DNA from: Escherichia coli
Lineage (GTDB): Bacteria; Pseudomonadota; Gammaproteobacteria; Enterobacterales; Enterobacteriaceae
DNA: 64,000 nt
Direction: 5' to 3' (one strand)
Assembly: GCF_024700885.2 (NCBI RefSeq)
Contig: NZ_CP117016.1
Below are positions 1 through 8,131 of the stretch, in pieces. The position numbers were made by a program, and so were the translations under genes. The first letter of the stretch is position 1. The number at the start of each line of letters is the position of its first letter. The notes under the pieces were generated by a model. The model saw only the letters and a program-made list of their open reading frames with translations. It searched no databases and had not been told where the DNA came from.

Positions 1-593
1 CACGTACTGTAAAAATTTATAACCTGCTGGCCGGAACTAATGAGTTTATTGGTGAAGGTGACGCATATATTCCACCTCATACAGGGCTGCCAGCTAATTC
101 TACAGATATCGCCCCACCGGAAATTCCTGCTGGCTTTGTGGCAGTTTTTAACAGTGAAAATGAATCGTGGAATATTGTTGAAGACCATCGTGGTAAAACG
201 GTCTATGACGTGGCATCGGGGGACGCGTTGTTTATTTCTGAGCCCGGACCGCTACCAGAGAATGTCACCTGGTTGTCGCCAGCAGGGGAGTATCAGAAGT
301 GGGACGGCGTATCCTGGGTGAAGGATGAGGAAGCAGAAAAACTGTTTCGGATACGGGAAGCGGAAGAGAAAAAGGCAAGGTTGATCCAGGAAGCAACAGA
401 TAACATCGCAATTCTGCAGGATGCAGTTAATCTTGAAATAGCAACAAACGAGGAAAATTCACAACTGGATTCCTGGAGAAAATACAGAGTATTAGTGAGT
501 AGAATTGACACCAGTACAGCTCCGGATATCGTATGGCCAGAGCTGATGAATCAGGGTTATGTGCGGGAGGACGAGCAGATAACTTCAGACTGA
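1..593 (+). CDS. Phage tail fibre assembly protein (Tfa, P2 gpG-like), 5'-truncated by window edge
   Basis: Frame open from position 3 with no stop; translation ...[35 protein letters not shown]...[21 protein letters not shown] matches Tfa family as I recall it. Confidence 0.8.
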
Positions 594-1120
594 AATTTAG
601 TGATGAATGTTGAATCATCAGGAATATCATGCAATACCAATGCATGAGCACCTATTGTGACATTGTTTCCTATACGCACTTTGCCACCAAGAATGGTGGC
701 ATTACAACCAATGGTCACATTATGTCCTATAACAATATCCATATCATTAAAATCACCACGCAGCCCAATAGTTACCCCTGGTTTTATTGAACAATTTTCA
801 CCGATTGTTACTTTGTGACCGATAACAACACTGTTGAGATAAGAAATATCAAAGCCTTTCCCTATATTTACAGTTAAAGGGACTGTTACATTATATTTAT
901 CAAGAATGAAACGTTCTATTTTCCCCGCAATCTTCCGACAGTATCCGCCTTTATCAAAAAGGTACTTGGCTATGCGCCACCAAAATAAATAACGAACTCT
1001 TCTATGTTTTATTGCGCGAACAATTGCCTTTCGCCAGGAGAAAGGACGCTCGCTACCGATTACTTCATAGTGAATACAATCTTTAAGTTCATTAATATTC
1101 ATATCTCTATTATTCAGCAT
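557..1120 (-). CDS. Left-handed beta-helix (hexapeptide-repeat) O-acetyltransferase, WcaB/CysE-like; prophage cargo
   Basis: 187-aa ORF with tandem hexapeptide repeats ([43 protein letters not shown]); visibly AT-rich; 3' end overlaps tfa 3' end by 37 nt. Confidence 0.7.
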
Positions 1121-1791: not shown

Positions 1792-4635
1792 TCAATCTTT
1801 ATCGTAAAAACTGCCACGCCCGGCACGGGCGCGCCGTTCCATTTCTGCCCTGACCATTTCACCGACCAGTTTCGCCAGTTCGCGGGGATTCTGCGTAACA
1901 ACGTTATGCAGATGAACATGAATTTCACCACCAAATCCGGAGGCAACAGGCTCCCGGTTACGGAAAGTTACAGGAACTGATGCCACTGGAGATCGTATGG
2001 CCTCCGCCACCGGGCGGGAGCTGGCCGCAACAACAGGGACCAGCGCCGGAGGCAGCGGAGCCGGGACCACGGGTGTGATATTAATTGCGGGGGCAGGCTT
2101 ACTGACCTGCGCAATCTTCCGCTCCTGCCACTCCCCACGAACAGCAAGTGCGCGGGGCAGGTTCTTAAAGACAATATCGCCGGGGCCAATGCGTTTTTTC
2201 GTCTCATCAACCAGCTTACCTGTGTTATCAGCAATTTTGCTGAGTCTGCGTAGCGTCCCGGTATTGCTGTCTGTGAGCGGTTTGTTGTCTTTGGGTTTAT
2301 CACCTCCGGTGCCATTGCCATTTTCCACAGGCTTCGGCGGATTGATTTTCGCCAGGTCACCCTGAAGCAAGGCAACCTTGTCCTGAAGAATGGCCGCACG
2401 CTGTGCGTCTTCGATTTTCTTGCGCGCCCTTTCCGCTTCATCCGGAAGGACGCCAAGTTTTTCAAGTATCCACGCCAGCGTATCCAGTAGCATTTTTGCA
2501 GGTGTCAGAACAAGCTGTAACGCACCGCCAAGAACGTTACCGAATATCTCGCCAGCACTGGTACATTTATCCAGCGTTTCCTTGCTGGACTCCATCGGTG
2601 ACAGCAGCGATTTAAACCAGTTAAACACCTGGCTGATCCCGCTTCCGATTGCGTCAAAAACAGGACCAAACCGTTCAAAGGTTTCGCGCAACGGGGTCAG
2701 CCTTTCCATAATCCCGCTGAACACCCCGGCAAAAAATGCCCTGATGGGATCCCAGTATTTCCAGATAAGAACGGCAGCTCCGGCAAGCGCAGCCACGATA
2801 AGACCAACCGGACTGAACAGCGCCCCGATAGCGCCTCCCAGTAAAGAAACGGAACCCGTCACCATTCCCCACAGCGCAGGCAACACCCTGACGACATTCA
2901 TTGACCGGGTAAGAATGTCGAAACCAAGACGCAGGGTGGCCAGCTTCCCGTAAAGCACCCCAATAACCAGCGACAACGAGCCAATCGTTGCAGTCATTGC
3001 CAGCAACGCACCGCCTGCTATCAGTAGTTGGCGCGTCAGTACCGGATGGGCCTGCGCCAGCGAGGTGATTTTTTCAAGCACCCGCGTGAGCCACTGCGTG
3101 ACAGAACGCAGCGGACCGTCAACCAGATCACTGATGCGAATACGAAGACCTTCCCATGCGCTGTCGAGATTTTTCAGGTCCCCATCAAGATTATCGGCCA
3201 TTACTTTTGCGACGCGATCGGCCTCTCCCCTTGCCCCCTGCAATTCTCTGGTCAGTTTTTGCAGCTCTCCTGAACCAGCCGCCGCAACAAGCGTCTGCAA
3301 ACCAACGAACGCCTCTTCTCCGGCGATGTCCTTGAAGAAGGAAACCTGGTCCACCTGTCCGTATTTTTGTGTCGCCTTATAGAGATCAAGCAGCACATCC
3401 TCCATCGGGCGCATTTTGCCTCTGGCGTCAGCAACTGACACCCCCAGCTCTTTCAGTGCATCAGCCGCAGCTTTTGGCGGTGATGCAAGGCGGGACAGAC
3501 TTGCGCGCATGGCCGTACCAGCATCGCTTCCGCGAAGACCATTATTGGCAAGCATCCCGGCCATGGCCGCCGCTTCTTCAAGACTGATACCAAGTTTTGC
3601 GGCAACCGGACCGGTATACTTCATGGTTTCGCCCAGCGCGCGTAAATCAGTATTGGTCCGGGTGAATGTTGCTGTCAGTGTATCGCCAACCCGGTCCATT
3701 TGATCGGCTGTCAGGTTGAACTGTGTGAGGATATTGGAGCCTATATCAGCCGTCTCGCCGAGTTCGACGCCACCTGCCAGCGCCATATTAAGAACACCGG
3801 GCAATGCGGCCTGAATGGCCTGCGGAGTAAAACCAGCCATTGCCAGAAAGCTCTGCCCACTGGCGGCATCACTCGCAGTAAACTGTGTTTCAGAGCCAAG
3901 TTTTAACGCCTGCTCACGCAGCGCCTTAAACTGCGGGCTGTTTTTGTCGATTCGCGTCAGTGCCTGAACGCGGGACATCTCTTTGCCGAACCCGATCGCA
4001 GGCTGCAAAAAACGCCCGGCAGCATAGCCGCCCGCCGCTGCCGCACCAATTGCCAGCGCACCACCTGTTTTCAGTTTTCCCGCTGTTTCCTGCGCGCGCG
4101 AATACCGCTCACGCGCCCGCGTTACACGCGCAAGCGCCTGCCGTTCGCGTTCAAGCTGGTTGTTGTACTGTTCGGTGCGTCTGATGGCCTGCTGGATGGT
4201 GTTATCGCTGCCTGTCAGGGAAATGCCGTGGCGTTTCAGCTCTCCGCCAAGTTCCCGCATTTTCTGAATTTCCCGTGTGCGCGATTCATTCAGGCGTTCA
4301 AGCCGGGTGCTTAACTGCTGCATCAGCTTTTGTTGTTTTTCGCTGAGCACTGTACCCGTGCGTTGTAACTGATTAAGGGCGTTAAGCTGGCGTCGTGCTT
4401 TCACGATGCCCGCATCCGCTTTACTGACAGCGTCACGGGCGCGCTCAAATGAACGCGCCTGACGCTCGAGATTTTTGATCGCCCCCTGCGTTCGCTGGAT
4501 GGAGTCACCAAACTGCCCCATCAGGCGGCGGGCGTTTTCGGCAGGCCGGGTCAGCCTGTCAACGGCGCTGAAAGCGACCCGGATATCAAGAGTCTTCATT
4601 GTCTGCATTCCCGCTGCGAAGTGCCGCCCGCTCAC
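1792..4635 (-). CDS. Phage tail tape measure protein (gpT)
   Basis: 947-aa ORF between E/E' and U, Ala/Gly-rich with coiled-coil-like N-terminal region; start codon uncertain. Confidence 0.85.
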   Translation of the reverse strand: MSGRHFAAGMQTMKTLDIRVAFSAVDRLTRPAENARRLMGQFGDSIQRTQGAIKNLERQARSFERARDAVSKADAGIVKARRQLNALNQLQRTGTVLSEKQQKLMQQLSTRLERLNESRTREIQKMRELGGELKRHGISLTGSDNTIQQAIRRTEQYNNQLERERQALARVTRARERYSRAQETAGKLKTGGALAIGAAAAGGYAAGRFLQPAIGFGKEMSRVQALTRIDKNSPQFKALREQALKLGSETQFTASDAASGQSFLAMAGFTPQAIQAALPGVLNMALAGGVELGETADIGSNILTQFNLTADQMDRVGDTLTATFTRTNTDLRALGETMKYTGPVAAKLGISLEEAAAMAGMLANNGLRGSDAGTAMRASLSRLASPPKAAADALKELGVSVADARGKMRPMEDVLLDLYKATQKYGQVDQVSFFKDIAGEEAFVGLQTLVAAAGSGELQKLTRELQGARGEADRVAKVMADNLDGDLKNLDSAWEGLRIRISDLVDGPLRSVTQWLTRVLEKITSLAQAHPVLTRQLLIAGGALLAMTATIGSLSLVIGVLYGKLATLRLGFDILTRSMNVVRVLPALWGMVTGSVSLLGGAIGALFSPVGLIVAALAGAAVLIWKYWDPIRAFFAGVFSGIMERLTPLRETFERFGPVFDAIGSGISQVFNWFKSLLSPMESSKETLDKCTSAGEIFGNVLGGALQLVLTPAKMLLDTLAWILEKLGVLPDEAERARKKIEDAQRAAILQDKVALLQGDLAKINPPKPVENGNGTGGDKPKDNKPLTDSNTGTLRRLSKIADNTGKLVDETKKRIGPGDIVFKNLPRALAVRGEWQERKIAQVSKPAPAINITPVVPAPLPPALVPVVAASSRPVAEAIRSPVASVPVTFRNREPVASGFGGEIHVHLHNVVTQNPRELAKLVGEMVRAEMERRARAGRGSFYDKD

Positions 4636-4822
4636 GCCAGCTAACCACTTCGCCGGGCGTCATCATGAAGATTTCGGCGGGCGACCAGTTAAAAATGGCG
4701 GCGATATCTGCCACCAGATCTTCGATGTGCTCAAAGCACACCAGCGTGATTACGCTGCCGTCTCCTGCACGCTCTTCGCGCCAGAGTCTGGCTCGCTCAT
4801 AAAATTTACAGCCACAGCGCAC
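4586..4822 (-). other. E' extension frame, reached from gpE by programmed -1 frameshift; overlaps the start of gpT
   Basis: -1 frame ORF overlapping the 3' end of gpE; opens just 3' of a TAA, so no independent start is expected. Confidence 0.6.
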
Positions 4823-5124
4823 AACTGAATAAAATCGCGTGACGACATTTTTTTAATCATCACTTCATCCAGTCGTGGCGAGGTCACGCGAGGCAACAGC
4901 GTGAACATGGTATCCGCTTTCAGATTCAGCACATCAGACAGCGACAGACCACGCAGGGATCCAGCCTGTTCAATAGCCCCGGTGATCTCCACATACGTGA
5001 TTTTTTCGCCACCACGCTCAATTGGTCGGGTCAGTTTTACGCCACGTTCGACAGCCATATCCTCACCTGCCGTCACATCATCCACCACGGTGTTATTCCG
5101 GGTTTCAGTATCGATGTCTTTCAT
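4750..5124 (-). CDS. Tail assembly chaperone gpE (zero-frame product)
   Basis: ORF directly upstream of the tape measure gene with an overlapping -1 frame ORF, typical of E/E'; real start may be an internal Met. Confidence 0.7.
   Translation of the reverse strand: MKDIDTETRNNTVVDDVTAGEDMAVERGVKLTRPIERGGEKITYVEITGAIEQAGSLRGLSLSDVLNLKADTMFTLLPRVTSPRLDEVMIKKMSSRDFIQLCAVAVNFMSEPDSGAKSVQETAA
4801..4807 (-). promoter_or_regulatory. Candidate -1 slippery heptamer A_AAT_TTT for E/E' frameshifting
   Basis: Minus-strand GTA AAT TTT ATG in the E frame; a -1 slip gives AAA TTT TAT GAG, continuing into the E' ORF. Confidence 0.55.
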
Positions 5125-5179
5125 CAGTTTTCTCCTTTTCAGTCAGAGGCGACGCACTGCGTCGCCTGCATATTACTTA

Positions 5180-5692
5180 TCAGCCAAGCCCGAGCGCGGA
5201 ACGGATACGGTCAGGCAAAATGTCCTTGCCGTCCTTCCGGTAGATGTGGTTCAACAGGTCGATTTCCCACAGCGGGCGATCGTTAACGCTCAGCTTGTAG
5301 TAGGTGTTTTTGACAGCGTAAGTGTGTGATGTGGCTTCGCCCTGTTTGGCTTCCCCCATATCAATTTCCGTCACACGTCCGCGCATCTCGATTTCATACA
5401 GATCGCTTTCTGCATCGGTGTAGTATTCACCCGCAAAACGCAGCAGCGTGCCGTCAATCGTGCCGCCATATTTAAGGAACAGCGCACGAACAGCTCCCCC
5501 CATAACAAAACTCGCATCAAGCGCGGAGTCGTCCAGACCGAGATCAATACTTACCGCCCCCATCATGCCACCACCACGATAGCTGTCGGTTTTGCGCGTC
5601 AGTTTGGGCGGCGTGACGGATGTCACTTTACCCACTTCGTTTTCACCATCCACAAACAACGTAAAAAAGCGAAGATGTTTTGGTACAGCCAT
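5180..5692 (-). CDS. Phage tail tube protein (gpFII)
   Basis: 170-aa ORF; its start overlaps the FI stop (ATGA), the usual FI-FII coupling. Confidence 0.85.
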   Translation of the reverse strand: MAVPKHLRFFTLFVDGENEVGKVTSVTPPKLTRKTDSYRGGGMMGAVSIDLGLDDSALDASFVMGGAVRALFLKYGGTIDGTLLRFAGEYYTDAESDLYEIEMRGRVTEIDMGEAKQGEATSHTYAVKNTYYKLSVNDRPLWEIDLLNHIYRKDGKDILPDRIRSALGLG

Positions 5693-6876
5693 CAGGCACC
5701 TCCCAGCACCGCAAATGCGGGACCAAAGAATTCATCAGTAAACGTCTGGTAAAGCTCCATGTCTTCCAGTGGCGGAACGGGCGTATATTTGTAGCGAATA
5801 CGCACACGTCCCTGACGTAAATTCGTGGTGCCGTTATCCACCACGTCATACCAGCACTCCGCGCCAATCAGTTTCCCGGCAGTAACCAGCGAATCCAGTT
5901 TTGCCCTGATGGCACTGATAACATCCTTCACGTTCGCAGGCGTCAGTGGACTGTCGATAGTTTCAAACTGCGCTTCCGCAATTGAATCAGCCAGCACCTG
6001 TGCGGTTCGGGTATACACCTCAAAGATGTAGGCGTTCGTTTCCGGTGTGCGGTTGCCCCAGAAGCGGAACCCATTGCGACGAATAATGGTCGTGATTTCT
6101 TTGTTGTTGAGGCTGTTGGCATCGCTGTCTTCGGCCTGCAACGACCAGAACACATGCCTCGACATCCCCAGCACATTTTTAACCGGAACGTTGGACAGTG
6201 ATTTGTGCCACCCCTGCTCATGGTCAATGTACGCACGAAGGCCGCACGCATAGGCAGGCGCGGGGAACGTTTCGTTTTTGCCACTTTTCGGGTTGTAGGC
6301 GATGAAGTCCGGCCATAAGAGCATCACCTCACGTTCGTTGAATTTCTGGCGGTAGGTAATCGCCTCAGCCATCGTGTTACAGCCGTGACATGAGGCATAC
6401 ACAAACGCGCGCAGTTTACCTGCAATCACGCACAGGGATTTTGTTACAGCCTCCGTGTCCAGCTCCGGCGCGGCCAGAATACGCGGACGGTATCCGATGC
6501 TTTCATCCTGCTCTGCAACAAGCAGCGCATACATCCCCGTATAGCTGCCGTCATCCTCAGAACCACCGATAACCAGTTGATCCTGCGTCTTTCCGTCTTC
6601 TTCTTTGTGTTCAGCCACGCGAACGACAATCACCTTTGTGCTCACCTGGTCTGCGATGGCCTTAAGCGCACGATAAAGCGTCCCCGTTGTCCCGCATTTT
6701 CCCAGCACGTCATTGACGCGGGTCAGCAGTGTGGGCTTGTTCAGCGGGAACAGCTTCGCGTCCGCATCATCCGCCGTTGCCACGATACCGATAACGCTGG
6801 AATCAACATCGTTAATCGCTGTTACCAGGTCGGTATTTTCCGTAACACGGGCACCATGAAAACGAGTTTCACTCAT
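5692..6876 (-). CDS. Phage contractile tail sheath protein (gpFI)
   Basis: 394-aa ORF; motifs LRAFVYASCHGC, QGWHKSLSNV, IRRNGFRFWGNRT, YKYTPVPPLE match P2 FI as I recall it. Confidence 0.9.
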   Translation of the reverse strand: MSETRFHGARVTENTDLVTAINDVDSSVIGIVATADDADAKLFPLNKPTLLTRVNDVLGKCGTTGTLYRALKAIADQVSTKVIVVRVAEHKEEDGKTQDQLVIGGSEDDGSYTGMYALLVAEQDESIGYRPRILAAPELDTEAVTKSLCVIAGKLRAFVYASCHGCNTMAEAITYRQKFNEREVMLLWPDFIAYNPKSGKNETFPAPAYACGLRAYIDHEQGWHKSLSNVPVKNVLGMSRHVFWSLQAEDSDANSLNNKEITTIIRRNGFRFWGNRTPETNAYIFEVYTRTAQVLADSIAEAQFETIDSPLTPANVKDVISAIRAKLDSLVTAGKLIGAECWYDVVDNGTTNLRQGRVRIRYKYTPVPPLEDMELYQTFTDEFFGPAFAVLGGA

Positions 6877-7033
6877 AGCTTCAGCCCCTTGTATCCGTTA
6901 AATGATTCGGCAACAATCATCACCCACCACGCGCGTAATCTCACCCCTGCGCCGTTCTCCCACCACGGCGACAACAAAAAGCAGTAACCCCCTCCGCACG
7001 CACATGCGACCATGCCGCACAGGGAGGGAACAG

Positions 7034-8131
7034 ATGACCGACACCACCATGCAATTGCTCAGTCAGGGCACAGACCCCGTGAAAATGCCGGATTTTGATA
7101 TTCTCGCGGAGGGTAAAACGCTGTCAGGCGTGACAGAGCGCCTGATGAGCCTGTCACTGACCGACAACCGGGGATTTGAGGCGGACCAGCTCACCATCAC
7201 GCTGGATGATGCAGATGGTCAGTTGCAGCTACCGCCACGGGGCGCGCGCCTGACGGTTCTCATTGGCTGGAAAGGAGAACCGCTGACAGAAAAAGGCACT
7301 TACATTGTTGATGAAATCGCTCACGAAGGACCGCCGGACAGGCTGACTGTTTCAGCCAGAAGCGCAGATTTTCGGGATGAATTTAACGTTAAACGTGAGG
7401 TGTCCTGGCATGATGTGACCGTTGAGCGTGTGGTATCCGCCATCGCTCATCGGTACGGTCTGAAACCGCAAATCAGCGAAATGCTGATGGATATCGAAAT
7501 CGACCACGCCGACCAGACCGAAGAAAGCGACATGTCCTTTCTTACGCGCATGGCGGAAATGCTGGGCGCAATCACCACGGTAAAAAGCGGTAATCTGTTA
7601 TTCATTATGCCAGGCGGTGGCGTGAACGCACAGGGCCAGCCGTTGCCATCGTTCGCCATCACGCGCAGCAGTGGCGATCGCCATCAGTTCCGCATTGCTG
7701 ACCGCGAAGCGTATACGGGGGTACGCGCTTACTGGCTTGATCTTAATTACGGGAAAAAGAAAAAAGTCAGCGTGAAACGCCGTAAACCGAAAATGGAGAA
7801 AAGCAGTAGCCGTGAAGGCGACTATATGGAAGGTGCGGAAGGCAACGTGTTTGTGTTACGCAAGACTTATCAGAACGAACAGGCAGCAAGACGCGCTGCG
7901 GCGGCAAAGTGGCAGCAGCTACAACGCGGAGCCGCATCATTCTCCATCACACTGGCACGTGGACGCGCAGAACTCTACCCCGAAATGCATGGCACGGTAA
8001 CAGGATTTAAAAGCGAGATTGATAATCAGGACTGGATTATTGCAAAAGCCGAGCACACCATTGATAACAGCGGTTATACCACGCAGCTTGAACTTGAAAC
8101 AAAAATCCCTGAATGGATTGCGCAGACCTAA
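7034..8131 (+). CDS. Phage late control / tail protein gpD
   Basis: LSLTDNRGFEADQL, SARSADFR, SWHDVT, YMEGAEGNVF match P2 gpD; ATG at 7034 is preceded by AGGGAGGGAA; the ORF track extends upstream to 6902. Confidence 0.85.
   Translation: MTDTTMQLLSQGTDPVKMPDFDILAEGKTLSGVTERLMSLSLTDNRGFEADQLTITLDDADGQLQLPPRGARLTVLIGWKGEPLTEKGTYIVDEIAHEGPPDRLTVSARSADFRDEFNVKREVSWHDVTVERVVSAIAHRYGLKPQISEMLMDIEIDHADQTEESDMSFLTRMAEMLGAITTVKSGNLLFIMPGGGVNAQGQPLPSFAITRSSGDRHQFRIADREAYTGVRAYWLDLNYGKKKKVSVKRRKPKMEKSSSREGDYMEGAEGNVFVLRKTYQNEQAARRAAAAKWQQLQRGAASFSITLARGRAELYPEMHGTVTGFKSEIDNQDWIIAKAEHTIDNSGYTTQLELETKIPEWIAQT

What the first reader, a model, noticed from the sequence alone, without database searches (positions are those of the whole stretch)
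4586..5124. Programmed -1 frameshift site A_AAT_TTT joining gpE to E'
The zero-frame E ORF ends at 4750, while a -1 frame ORF (4586-4822) overlaps its last ~24 codons and extends into the start of T. The minus-strand heptamer at 4801-4807 (GTA AAT TTT ATG) allows tandem tRNA slippage to AAA TTT, and the -1 frame opens just 3' of a TAA, leaving no independent start for E'. This is the conserved tail-chaperone frameshift (lambda G/GT, P2 E/E') and suggests this module remained functional despite the rearrangement.
Basis: partly seen in the sequence, partly recalled or inferred. Interest (0 to 1): 0.3.

Follow-up and report, generated by a model that had tools for sequence, protein, structure and literature searches.

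The report
Tail-chaperone frameshift site in a P2-like prophage
This is the well-known ribosomal -1 frameshift that lets P2-like phages make a long and a short tail-assembly chaperone from one start codon, here in a common E. coli prophage where the usual slippery sequence has moved one codon upstream; it is ordinary biology that genome annotation misses.

Summary
On the minus strand, gene E (4750-5124) is overlapped by an open -1 frame (4586-4852). That frame carries a Pfam Phage_P2_GpE domain and runs 14 nt into tape-measure gene T. The only canonical in-register slippery heptamer in E is A_AAT_TTT (4807-4801).

The predicted 179-aa fusion (...AVAVNF|YERARLW...) aligns colinearly with P2 E+E' (E 1e-28). 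Substitutions between relatives switch from zero-frame to -1-frame wobble positions exactly at the heptamer.

The site is not identical to the P2 site. 19 of 22 sampled phages have T_TTT_TT(G/T). P88 has AAATTTTTTG, which contains both heptamers. This allele (AAATTTTATG) keeps only the upstream one. It occurs in 597 of 5,426 complete E. coli genomes and in the plaque-forming phage phiSM.

No conserved downstream stem-loop exists, as reported for P2.

The "rearrangement" is the normal gene order of the genus Xuanwuvirus, and the prophage looks complete.

Public annotation calls E' a separate 51-aa gene. The fusion is absent from a 15-billion-protein collection.

Verdict: a real, ordinary, unannotated member of a known recoding class. 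No experiment was possible.

The parts
4750..5124 (-). Gene E, the short tail assembly chaperone (124 aa). ATG is at 5124 and stop TAA at 4752-4750.
   Evidence: ORF and translation. Pfam Phage_TAC_7 scores 20.5 bits, below the 25-bit cut-off. PHROG 103 'tail protein' E 1e-33. tblastn to P2 gpE gives 34.8% identity, E 3e-7. The predicted fold matches phage tape-measure and tail-assembly chaperones in BFVD.
5132..5136 (-). Shine-Dalgarno AGGAG, 7 nt upstream of the E start codon. It is the single initiation site proposed to serve both E and E+E'.
   Evidence: Read directly from the sequence.
4801..4807 (-). Slippery heptamer A_AAT_TTT (codons gtA AAT TTT, Val106-Asn107-Phe108), the proposed -1 shift site. 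It overlaps T_TTT_A (4804-4800), the remnant of the P2-type T_TTT_TTG.
   Evidence: It is the only in-register XXXYYYN in E. AAATTTT is invariant in about 99 IMG/VR E-gene contexts and in 79 of 79 close relatives. The Phe codon is invariant in the 16-genus fusion alignment. A_AAU_UUU belongs to the H_HH.U_UU.Y class, one of the most efficient motif classes in E. coli (PMC4066793).
4586..4801 (-). E' extension read in the -1 frame after the slip: Tyr109 to Ser179 plus TGA 4588-4586. The full fusion is join(5124..4801, 4801..4586), 179 aa.
   Evidence: Fusion computed. Pfam Phage_P2_GpE scores 46.3 bits, E 2.9e-12. BLASTP to P2 E+E' gives E 1e-28, colinear across the junction. -1-frame wobble positions carry most substitutions from 4800 onward. 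AlphaFold model has pLDDT 86, with a helix (residues 95-111) spanning the junction.
4853..4855 (-). TAA that closes the -1 frame upstream. The -1 frame is open from 4852 to 4586.
   Evidence: Translation of 4586-4858; frame analysis.
4848..4854 (-). A7 run (AAA AAA A, Lys-Lys), an alternative weak slip or transcriptional-slippage site. A shift here is productive only in this allele.
   Evidence: A -1 shift here also gives a 179-aa fusion with a different 16-residue linker. In P88 a TGA closes the -1 frame between the A run and the heptamer, so the site is not conserved as a productive one.
4586..4741 (-). The 51-aa 'GpE family phage tail protein' CDS as annotated by PGAP/RefSeq, starting at GTG 4741. 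This is judged an annotation artefact of the unrecognised frameshift.
   Evidence: Annotations. No SD within 20 nt. The start would cut a predicted beta-hairpin (residues 115-129).
1792..4599 (-). Gene T (tape measure protein). Its ATG at 4599 overlaps the end of E' by 14 nt.
   Evidence: Pfam PhageMin_Tail E 1e-56. PGAP start.
5180..5692 (-). Gene FII (tail tube), immediately upstream of E.
   Evidence: Pfam Phage_tube E 5e-46.
4757..4792 (-). Imperfect hairpin starting 8 nt 3' of the heptamer. It is allele-specific and not supported as a stimulator.
   Evidence: Its 60-nt context folds at -21.8 kcal/mol, z = -1.6. The corresponding P88 sequence gives z = +0.7 and P2 z = 0.

Best explanation
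Ribosomes start at the E start codon (5124). Most terminate at 4750 and release the 124-aa chaperone E.

A minority slip back one nucleotide on GTA AAT TTT A (4807-4800). This could happen in two ways: tandem re-pairing of tRNA-Asn and tRNA-Phe from AAU UUU to AAA UUU, or tRNA-Phe alone slipping from UUU to UUU on T_TTT_A. Both routes then read TAT GAG CGA... in the -1 frame down to TGA 4586. Both produce the same 179-aa E+E' protein (...AVAVNF-YERARLW...).

By analogy with lambda G/GT and P2 E/E+E', the shared E part is expected to coat the tape-measure protein T. The E' domain would then recruit the tube protein, and the fixed low ratio set by slip efficiency would be needed for tail assembly.

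What is shown: the anatomy, the homology, the conservation and the selection in the -1 frame. What is inferred: the slip itself, its efficiency and the chaperone roles.
For: 1. Position. E and E' lie between tube gene FII and tape-measure gene T, and E' overlaps the T start.

2. Domain. The -1 ORF carries Phage_P2_GpE (46 bits).

3. Colinearity. The fusion aligns with P2 E+E' at 33% identity, E 1e-28, with junction NF|Y opposite P2 GF|L. All 16 fusions align, and the slip-site Phe is invariant.

4. Family-wide pattern. In all 22 phages sampled (21 relatives plus the window), the -1 frame is open from at or before an in-register heptamer through E'. In SEN4 it opens exactly at the heptamer.

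5. Selection. For window versus P88, differences by zero-frame codon position 1/2/3 are:
   - upstream of the heptamer: 13/12/32
   - in the 51-nt overlap: 2/7/4
   - in the E'-only part: 1/6/2

   Fisher p = 0.035, or 0.014 when pooled with a Klebsiella/Enterobacter phage pair. This shows selection on the -1 frame upstream of the annotated GTG start.

6. Conservation. AAATTTT is invariant while flanking synonymous sites vary.

7. Motif strength. A_AAU_UUU falls in the H_HH.U_UU.Y class, among the most efficient -1 motifs in E. coli (PMC4066793).

8. Viability of this allele. phiSM, a plaque-forming temperate phage (PMC6456863), carries the identical GTAAATTTTATGAGCG. The allele is present in 597 of 5,426 complete E. 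coli genomes.

9. No independent initiation signal. None of the -1-frame GTGs has an SD.

10. Structure. The AlphaFold model of the fusion is confident (pLDDT 86, pTM 0.75), with a helix running through the junction.
Against: - There is no direct evidence of the fusion protein for this genus.
- The heptamer alone occurs by chance in 12% of shuffles.
- The proven P2 heptamer T_TTT_TTG is destroyed here (TTG to ATG), so the functional site is inferred, not homologous base for base.
- No conserved 3' structure or 5' SD-like stimulator was found (sequence read directly). Without stimulators, heptamers in the Sharma reporter gave at most about 10 times a 0.055% background.
- The substitution-phase test rests on only 13-24 differences.
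- The AlphaFold alignment was built from my own conceptual fusions.
Confidence: 0.85

Rival explanations
1. E' is an independent small gene, translated from GTG 4741 as a free 51-aa protein, as PGAP and RefSeq annotate it. No frameshift would be needed.
For: An in-frame GTG lies at 4741, upstream of the Pfam GpE domain. Databases annotate it this way on at least 999 contigs.
Against: - No SD lies within 20 nt of the GTG; the nearest AGGAG is 20 nt away.
- In P2 the E' ORF is expressed only as the E+E' fusion (PMC3091744, citing Christie 2002 and Xu 2004).
- The -1 frame shows wobble-biased substitution already in 4800-4750, upstream of this GTG.
- The -1 frame reaches back to an in-register heptamer in all 22 phages sampled.
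- Annotated start positions differ between relatives.
- The predicted structure places a beta-hairpin across the supposed start.
Confidence: 0.06
2. The productive shift in this allele occurs at the A7 run (ATT AAA AAA ATG, 4854-4848), where the -1 frame first opens. It could be ribosomal slippage on A_AAA or transcriptional insertion of an A. The result would be a fusion with linker NVVTRFYSVVRCGCKF.
For: The -1 frame is open from exactly this run, and the product is also 179 aa. A_AA.A is a weakly shift-prone tetramer, and A7 runs are avoided in E. coli genes, possibly because of transcriptional slippage (PMC4066793).
Against: - In P88, 500465-2 and Chuche the A7 run is present, but a TGA closes the -1 frame before the heptamer. 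The site therefore cannot be the conserved one.
- More distant relatives have no A run there.
- Upstream of the heptamer, substitutions follow the zero frame.
- The P-site codon would have to re-pair on TAA, a first-position mismatch.
- Tetramers without a stimulator are barely shifty.
- 15 stop-free codons are expected by chance about half the time.
Confidence: 0.04
3. The frameshift signal has decayed in this allele. TTG to ATG destroyed the ancestral T_TTT_TTG, E+E' is no longer made, and the prophage tail module is defective.
For: 19 of 22 sampled phages keep T_TTT_TT(G/T). This allele does not.
Against: - The same allele is in phiSM, which forms plaques and lysogens.
- It occurs in 597 complete E. 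coli genomes with the E' frame intact, and in 46 of about 49 IMG/VR contigs of this allele.
- A canonical and efficient heptamer remains.
- The prophage in E-1246 has a full gene set.
- Klebsiella phage ST16-OXA48phi5.4 shows the parallel case, with only C_CCT_TTC retained.
Confidence: 0.05

Closest known systems
Bacteriophage P2 E / E+E' programmed -1 frameshift (Christie et al. 2002, J Bacteriol 184:6522; slippery TTTTTTG; cited in PMC3091744)
   Same: - Same gene position: FII - E - E' - T.
- The proteins are homologous. E is 35% identical, E' matches Pfam PF06528, and the fusions align colinearly at E 1e-28.
- E' overlaps the start of T.
- No conserved downstream RNA structure.
- The Phe codon at the slip site is conserved.
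   Different: - The heptamer is A_AAT_TTT, one codon upstream. The P2-type T_TTT_TTG is broken here to T_TTT_ATG.
- E is 33 aa longer at the N-terminus.
- The E/E' overlap after the slip is 51 nt rather than about 25 nt, and the linker is about 10 residues longer.
- The FI-U operon is inverted relative to P2, with gpD divergent. This is the norm for Xuanwuvirus.
Phage P88 and other Xuanwuvirus/Gemsvirus alleles (AAATTTTTTG)
   Same: Same genus-level module, 86% nucleotide identity. A_AAT_TTT is identical, and the E' domain is nearly identical.
   Different: P88 carries both overlapping heptamers (A_AAT_TTT and T_TTT_TTG), while this allele carries only the first. In P88 the -1 frame opens 25 nt upstream of the GTA codon, not 43 nt, so the A7 run is non-productive there.
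Lambda G / GT tail assembly chaperones and the conserved tail-chaperone frameshift of dsDNA phages (Levin 1993; Xu, Hendrix and Duda 2004, 2013, 2014; summarised in PMC5009743)
   Same: - Two products share one start.
[quoted passage not shown]
- The genes sit between the major tail gene and the tape-measure gene.
- The proteins are chaperones absent from virions.
   Different: There is no detectable sequence homology to lambda G/T. This is a contractile-tail (myovirus) system. The chaperone roles are inferred here, not tested.
Klebsiella phage ST16-OXA48phi5.4 (Reipivirus) E/E'
   Same: This is a parallel case. The P2-type heptamer is lost (TTC TTG), and the overlapping upstream X_XXT_TTY heptamer (C_CCT_TTC) is kept at the same codon positions.
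   Different: X is C rather than A. It belongs to a different genus and host.

Membership tests
Tail assembly chaperone pair made by programmed -1 frameshift (lambda G/GT class) | Two overlapping ORFs located between the major tail/tube gene and the tape-measure gene | tested here: met
   FII 5180-5692, E 4750-5124, the -1 ORF 4586-4852 and T 1792-4599 are all on the minus strand.
Tail assembly chaperone pair made by programmed -1 frameshift (lambda G/GT class) | Second ORF in the -1 frame, lacking its own ribosome-binding site | tested here: met
   The frame offset was verified. GTGs at 4822, 4741 and 4714 have no SD within 20 nt.
Tail assembly chaperone pair made by programmed -1 frameshift (lambda G/GT class) | Slippery X_XXY_YYZ sequence in register within the overlap, conserved among relatives | tested here: met
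   A_AAT_TTT lies at 4807-4801. It is invariant in about 180 related contigs. By itself it occurs by chance in 12% of shuffles.
Tail assembly chaperone pair made by programmed -1 frameshift (lambda G/GT class) | Fusion protein actually produced at a low fixed ratio and required for tail assembly | not testable with these tools
   Only indirect evidence exists: -1-frame purifying selection from the heptamer onward, and the viability of phiSM with the same allele.
P2 gpE / gpE+E' family (Pfam PF10109 + PF06528) | E homologous to P2 gpE | tested here: met
   PF10109 scores 20.5 bits, below its 25-bit cut-off. However, tblastn to P2 gives 34.8% identity over 72% of the query, E 3e-7, PHROG 103 gives E 1e-33, and the full fusion versus P2 E+E' gives E 1e-28.
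P2 gpE / gpE+E' family (Pfam PF10109 + PF06528) | E' matches Phage_P2_GpE above the curated cut-off | tested here: met
   46.3 bits against a cut-off of 23, E 2.9e-12, covering profile positions 1-36 of 37.
P2 gpE / gpE+E' family (Pfam PF10109 + PF06528) | P2-type slippery heptamer T_TTT_TTG at the homologous codons (characteristic of the family, not required for homology) | tested here: not met
   The window reads T_TTT_ATG. 19 of 22 sampled phages have T_TTT_TT(G/T). The overlapping A_AAT_TTT replaces it.
P2 gpE / gpE+E' family (Pfam PF10109 + PF06528) | E' reading frame overlaps the start of the tape-measure gene T | tested here: met
   E' stop is at 4588-4586 and the T ATG at 4599.

The most novel reading that the evidence does not exclude
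The slip site has migrated by one codon within Peduoviridae. The route would be a double-site intermediate: AAATTTTTTG in P88, present in 820 E. coli genomes. In this allele (597 genomes) only A_AAT_TTT remains. A_AAT_TTT belongs to a more efficient motif class in E. coli than U_UUU_UUG. The two common alleles may therefore frameshift at different rates and set different E:E+E' ratios. This would be a natural allelic series for testing how tightly tail assembly constrains frameshift efficiency. The allele-specific hairpin 8 nt downstream (4792-4757) could be a compensating stimulator.
Probability: 0.25. Interest if true: 0.35.

Novelty: new member of a known kind. Interest (0 to 1): 0.15.

Why it matters
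The main value is for annotation. About a quarter of complete E. coli genomes (1,373 of 5,426) carry this E/E' module. Both PGAP and RefSeq phage records call E' a separate 51-aa gene, and the fusion protein is absent from a 15-billion-sequence collection. A join at 4801 would correct thousands of records.

For recoding biology, the locus gives a small clean example of slip-site turnover: T_TTT_TTG, then the double site AAATTTTTTG, then A_AAT_TTT alone. A parallel case exists in a Klebsiella phage.

It does not change the understanding of the mechanism.

Tried and rejected
- **Downstream stimulatory structure.** The window has an imperfect hairpin 8 nt after the heptamer (z = -1.6). P88 (z = +0.7) and P2 (z = 0) have none, and the pairs are broken in P88. 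Rejected as a conserved stimulator.
- **Upstream SD-like stimulator.** None is visible in the 20 nt before the heptamer in either the window or P88 (read directly).
- **Rfam scan of 4400-5300.** Only sub-threshold chance hits were found: osmY at 23 bits against a gathering score of 46.9, lying on the FII-E intergenic hairpin.
- **Terminator-like hairpin plus T5 inside E' (4716-4696).** The T run is absent in P2, Midge, SEN4 and ENT90, so it is not a family feature.
- **NCBIfam.** No hit for the fusion.
- **PDB.** No hit by sequence and no significant match by fold.
- **Christie et al. 2002 (PMC135442).** The paper is not held. The P2 site and the lack of structure are taken from PMC3091744.
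- **Literature on P88 and phiSM.** Neither paper mentions the frameshift.
- **The "rearrangement" premise.** Rejected after comparison with P88 and P88_4B11.
Full report
**What is there**

The left 10 kb of the window is the right end of a P2-like prophage. The 701-nt region around the finding is 100% identical to E. coli E-1246 (NZ_CP025573.1) and 98.6% identical to Xuanwuvirus P88_4B11.

On the minus strand lie:
- FI, the sheath gene (5692-6876)
- FII, the tube gene (5180-5692, Pfam Phage_tube)
- E (4750-5124)
- T, the tape-measure gene (1792-4599, PhageMin_Tail)
- U (1291-1785)

E encodes 124 aa and is preceded by an AGGAG seven nt upstream.

The -1 frame relative to E is open from 4852 to TGA 4588-4586. 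Its last 36 residues match Pfam Phage_P2_GpE (46 bits, E 2.9e-12). It ends 14 nt inside T.

**Checking the observation**

The heptamer A_AAT_TTT sits at 4807-4801 in the X_XXY_YYZ register of E. It is the only such heptamer in the gene.

Three details needed correction.
- The -1 frame opens after TAA 4855-4853, inside ATT AAA AAA ATG. That is 46 nt upstream of the heptamer, so the overlap is 103 nt rather than about 72 nt.
- Three in-frame GTGs exist (4822, 4741, 4714). None has an SD within 20 nt.
- A canonical in-register heptamer appears by chance in 12% of shuffles of the overlap. The motif alone proves little.

**Evidence from relatives**

I compared the E to E' region in 21 related phages, giving 22 sampled phages with the window itself. 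They infect Gamma-, Beta- and Alphaproteobacteria (analysed).

In every one, the -1 frame is open from at or before an in-register heptamer through a GpE-like C-terminus. In SEN4 it opens exactly at the heptamer.

The heptamers found were:

| Phage or clade | Sequence at the site |
|---|---|
| 19 of 22 sampled | T_TTT_TT(G/T), the site established for P2 (TTTTTTG; PMC3091744, citing Christie 2002 and Xu 2004) |
| P88, 500465-2, Chuche (counted among the 19) | AAATTTTTTG, i.e. A_AAT_TTT and T_TTT_TTG overlapping |
| Window, P88_4B11, phiSM, 503458, 520873 | AAATTTTATG, i.e. only A_AAT_TTT survives |
| Klebsiella phage ST16-OXA48phi5.4 | Only C_CCT_TTC retained, a parallel case |
| Mannheimia phiMhaA1 | G_GGA_AAG |

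**How common the allele is**

An IMG/VR scan with GTAAATTTTNTGAGCG found about 49 E-gene contexts with N = A and about 50 with N = T. AAATTTT was invariant and flanking synonymous sites varied. One contig carried the A allele on a P88-type background.

79 of 79 close E' relatives keep AAATTTT.

Among 5,426 complete E. coli genomes, 597 carry the window-type 49-mer and 820 the P88-type.

**Is the -1 frame translated from the heptamer?**

Between the window and P88, substitutions by zero-frame codon position were:

| Region | Position 1 | Position 2 | Position 3 |
|---|---|---|---|
| Upstream of the heptamer | 13 | 12 | 32 |
| 51 nt between heptamer and E stop | 2 | 7 | 4 |
| E'-only part | 1 | 6 | 2 |

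Zero-frame position 2 is the wobble position of the -1 frame. The switch gives Fisher p = 0.035, or 0.014 when pooled with the phiT5282H/ST16phi5.4 pair. This argues that the -1 frame is decoded upstream of GTG 4741, the start used by PGAP and RefSeq for a separate 51-aa "GpE family" protein.

The conceptual fusion is 179 aa (...AVAVNF|YERARLW...). It aligns colinearly with P2 E+E' (142 aa) at 33% identity, E 1e-28, with the junction NF|Y opposite GF|L. All 16 fusions align, and the slip-site Phe is invariant.

AlphaFold gives a confident single model (pLDDT 86, pTM 0.75). A helix (residues 95-111) runs through the junction, and a beta-hairpin (115-129) would be cut by the annotated GTG start. 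As a caveat, that alignment was made from my own fusions.

The fold matches phage tape-measure and tail-assembly chaperones in BFVD (E 6e-4, probability 1.0). Nothing in the PDB matches.

**Mechanism**

Two routes are possible.
- Tandem slippage of tRNA-Asn and tRNA-Phe on A_AAU_UUU.
- P-site slippage of tRNA-Phe on U_UUU_A.

Both yield the same protein. In E. coli, A_AAU_UUU belongs to the H_HH.U_UU.Y group, one of the most efficient motif groups, whereas U_UUU_UUG does not (PMC4066793).

No conserved stimulator exists. The window's hairpin 8 nt downstream has z = -1.6 and is not maintained in P88 or P2. This agrees with reports that P2 has none. Efficiency is therefore unknown and probably low, as suits a chaperone ratio.

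That E binds T and E' recruits the tube is inferred from lambda G/GT (PMC5009743). It was not tested.

**Rivals**

- Independent initiation at GTG 4741. This is contradicted by the missing SD, the phase switch and the family-wide frame continuity.
- A shift at the A7 run. It is productive only in this allele and blocked by a TGA in P88.
- A decayed signal. This is contradicted by phiSM, which forms plaques and carries the identical site, and by the prevalence of the allele.

**Context**

The "rearrangement" is not one. gpD divergent from FI is the normal order in P88 and P88_4B11. The E-1246 prophage runs from integrase to ogr between btuC and ihfA with a complete morphogenesis set.

**Novelty**

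The frameshift class and the P2 family are known. This genus has not had it described or annotated: the fusion is absent from a 15-billion-protein collection, while both halves each occur on about 1,000 or more contigs, and the P88 and phiSM papers do not mention it.

It is a new member of a known kind, with a shifted heptamer. Interest is low.

Noticed in passing
window 4631-4664 (E' coding region); L218 985-1745: A type I-E CRISPR array next to cas1e/cas2e in E. coli GmM066 (NZ_CM183652.1) contains a 34-nt 100% match to this stretch. It is evidently a spacer acquired from a phage of this group.
   Followed up: partly
window 6902-8131 (+) versus 5692-6876 (-): gpD (Pfam Phage_GPD) is transcribed divergently from FI-FII-E-T-U. 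Compared with P2 the FI-U block is inverted, but P88 and P88_4B11 have the same order, so this is the genus norm and not a rearrangement. PGAP annotates only a 263-aa gpD in E-1246, plus a partial pseudogene beside it.
   Followed up: partly
window 8262-9422 (-): An AT-rich 386-aa ORF is inserted between gpD and ogr. It is absent at this position in P88_4B11. It has no Pfam and no PADLOC hit, and may be a phage cargo or defence gene in a P2-type hotspot.
   Followed up: partly
window 557-1120 (-): A hexapeptide-repeat acetyltransferase gene lies between the tail-fibre assembly gene and gpU, the slot that holds Z/fun-type cargo in P2. It is probably a lysogenic-conversion gene.
   Followed up: no
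window 4725-4741 (-): A near-perfect hairpin GTGTGCTTTGAGCACAT (7-bp stem, 3-nt loop) lies 9 nt after the E stop and is conserved in P88. It is 60 nt from the slip site, too far to stimulate frameshifting, and its purpose is unknown. It may simply reflect the VCFEHI coding sequence.
   Followed up: partly
window 4696-4716 (-): A terminator-like stem-loop followed by TTTTT lies inside E', upstream of the T start. The T run is not conserved in P2, Midge, SEN4 or ENT90, so it is probably incidental.
   Followed up: partly
window 5149-5167 (-): A strong GC hairpin, GGCGACGCAGTGCGTCGCC, lies in the FII-E intergenic region with no T tract. It may be an RNA-stability or attenuation element that lowers expression of E-T-U relative to sheath and tube. 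A sub-threshold Rfam osmY hit lies on it.
   Followed up: no
window 10075-10215 (+): A Hok/Gef-family toxin ORF lies at the prophage end, between ogr and ihfA.
   Followed up: no
L137 (Citrobacter phage phiSM, OR565851.1): phiSM was described by electron microscopy as a siphovirus with a non-contractile tail (PMC6456863). Yet its tail module is 98% identical to this P2-like one, and it is classified in the same genus (Xuanwuvirus) as P88, whose tail was reported to contract (PMC5285337). This is an unexplained discrepancy in the literature.
   Followed up: no
one IMG/VR contig among L016-L135 (not individually identified; output): One viral contig carries the ATG allele (AAATTTTATG) embedded in P88-type flanks on both sides. 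The T/A polymorphism at the slip site has therefore arisen or recombined independently of the surrounding haplotype.
   Followed up: no
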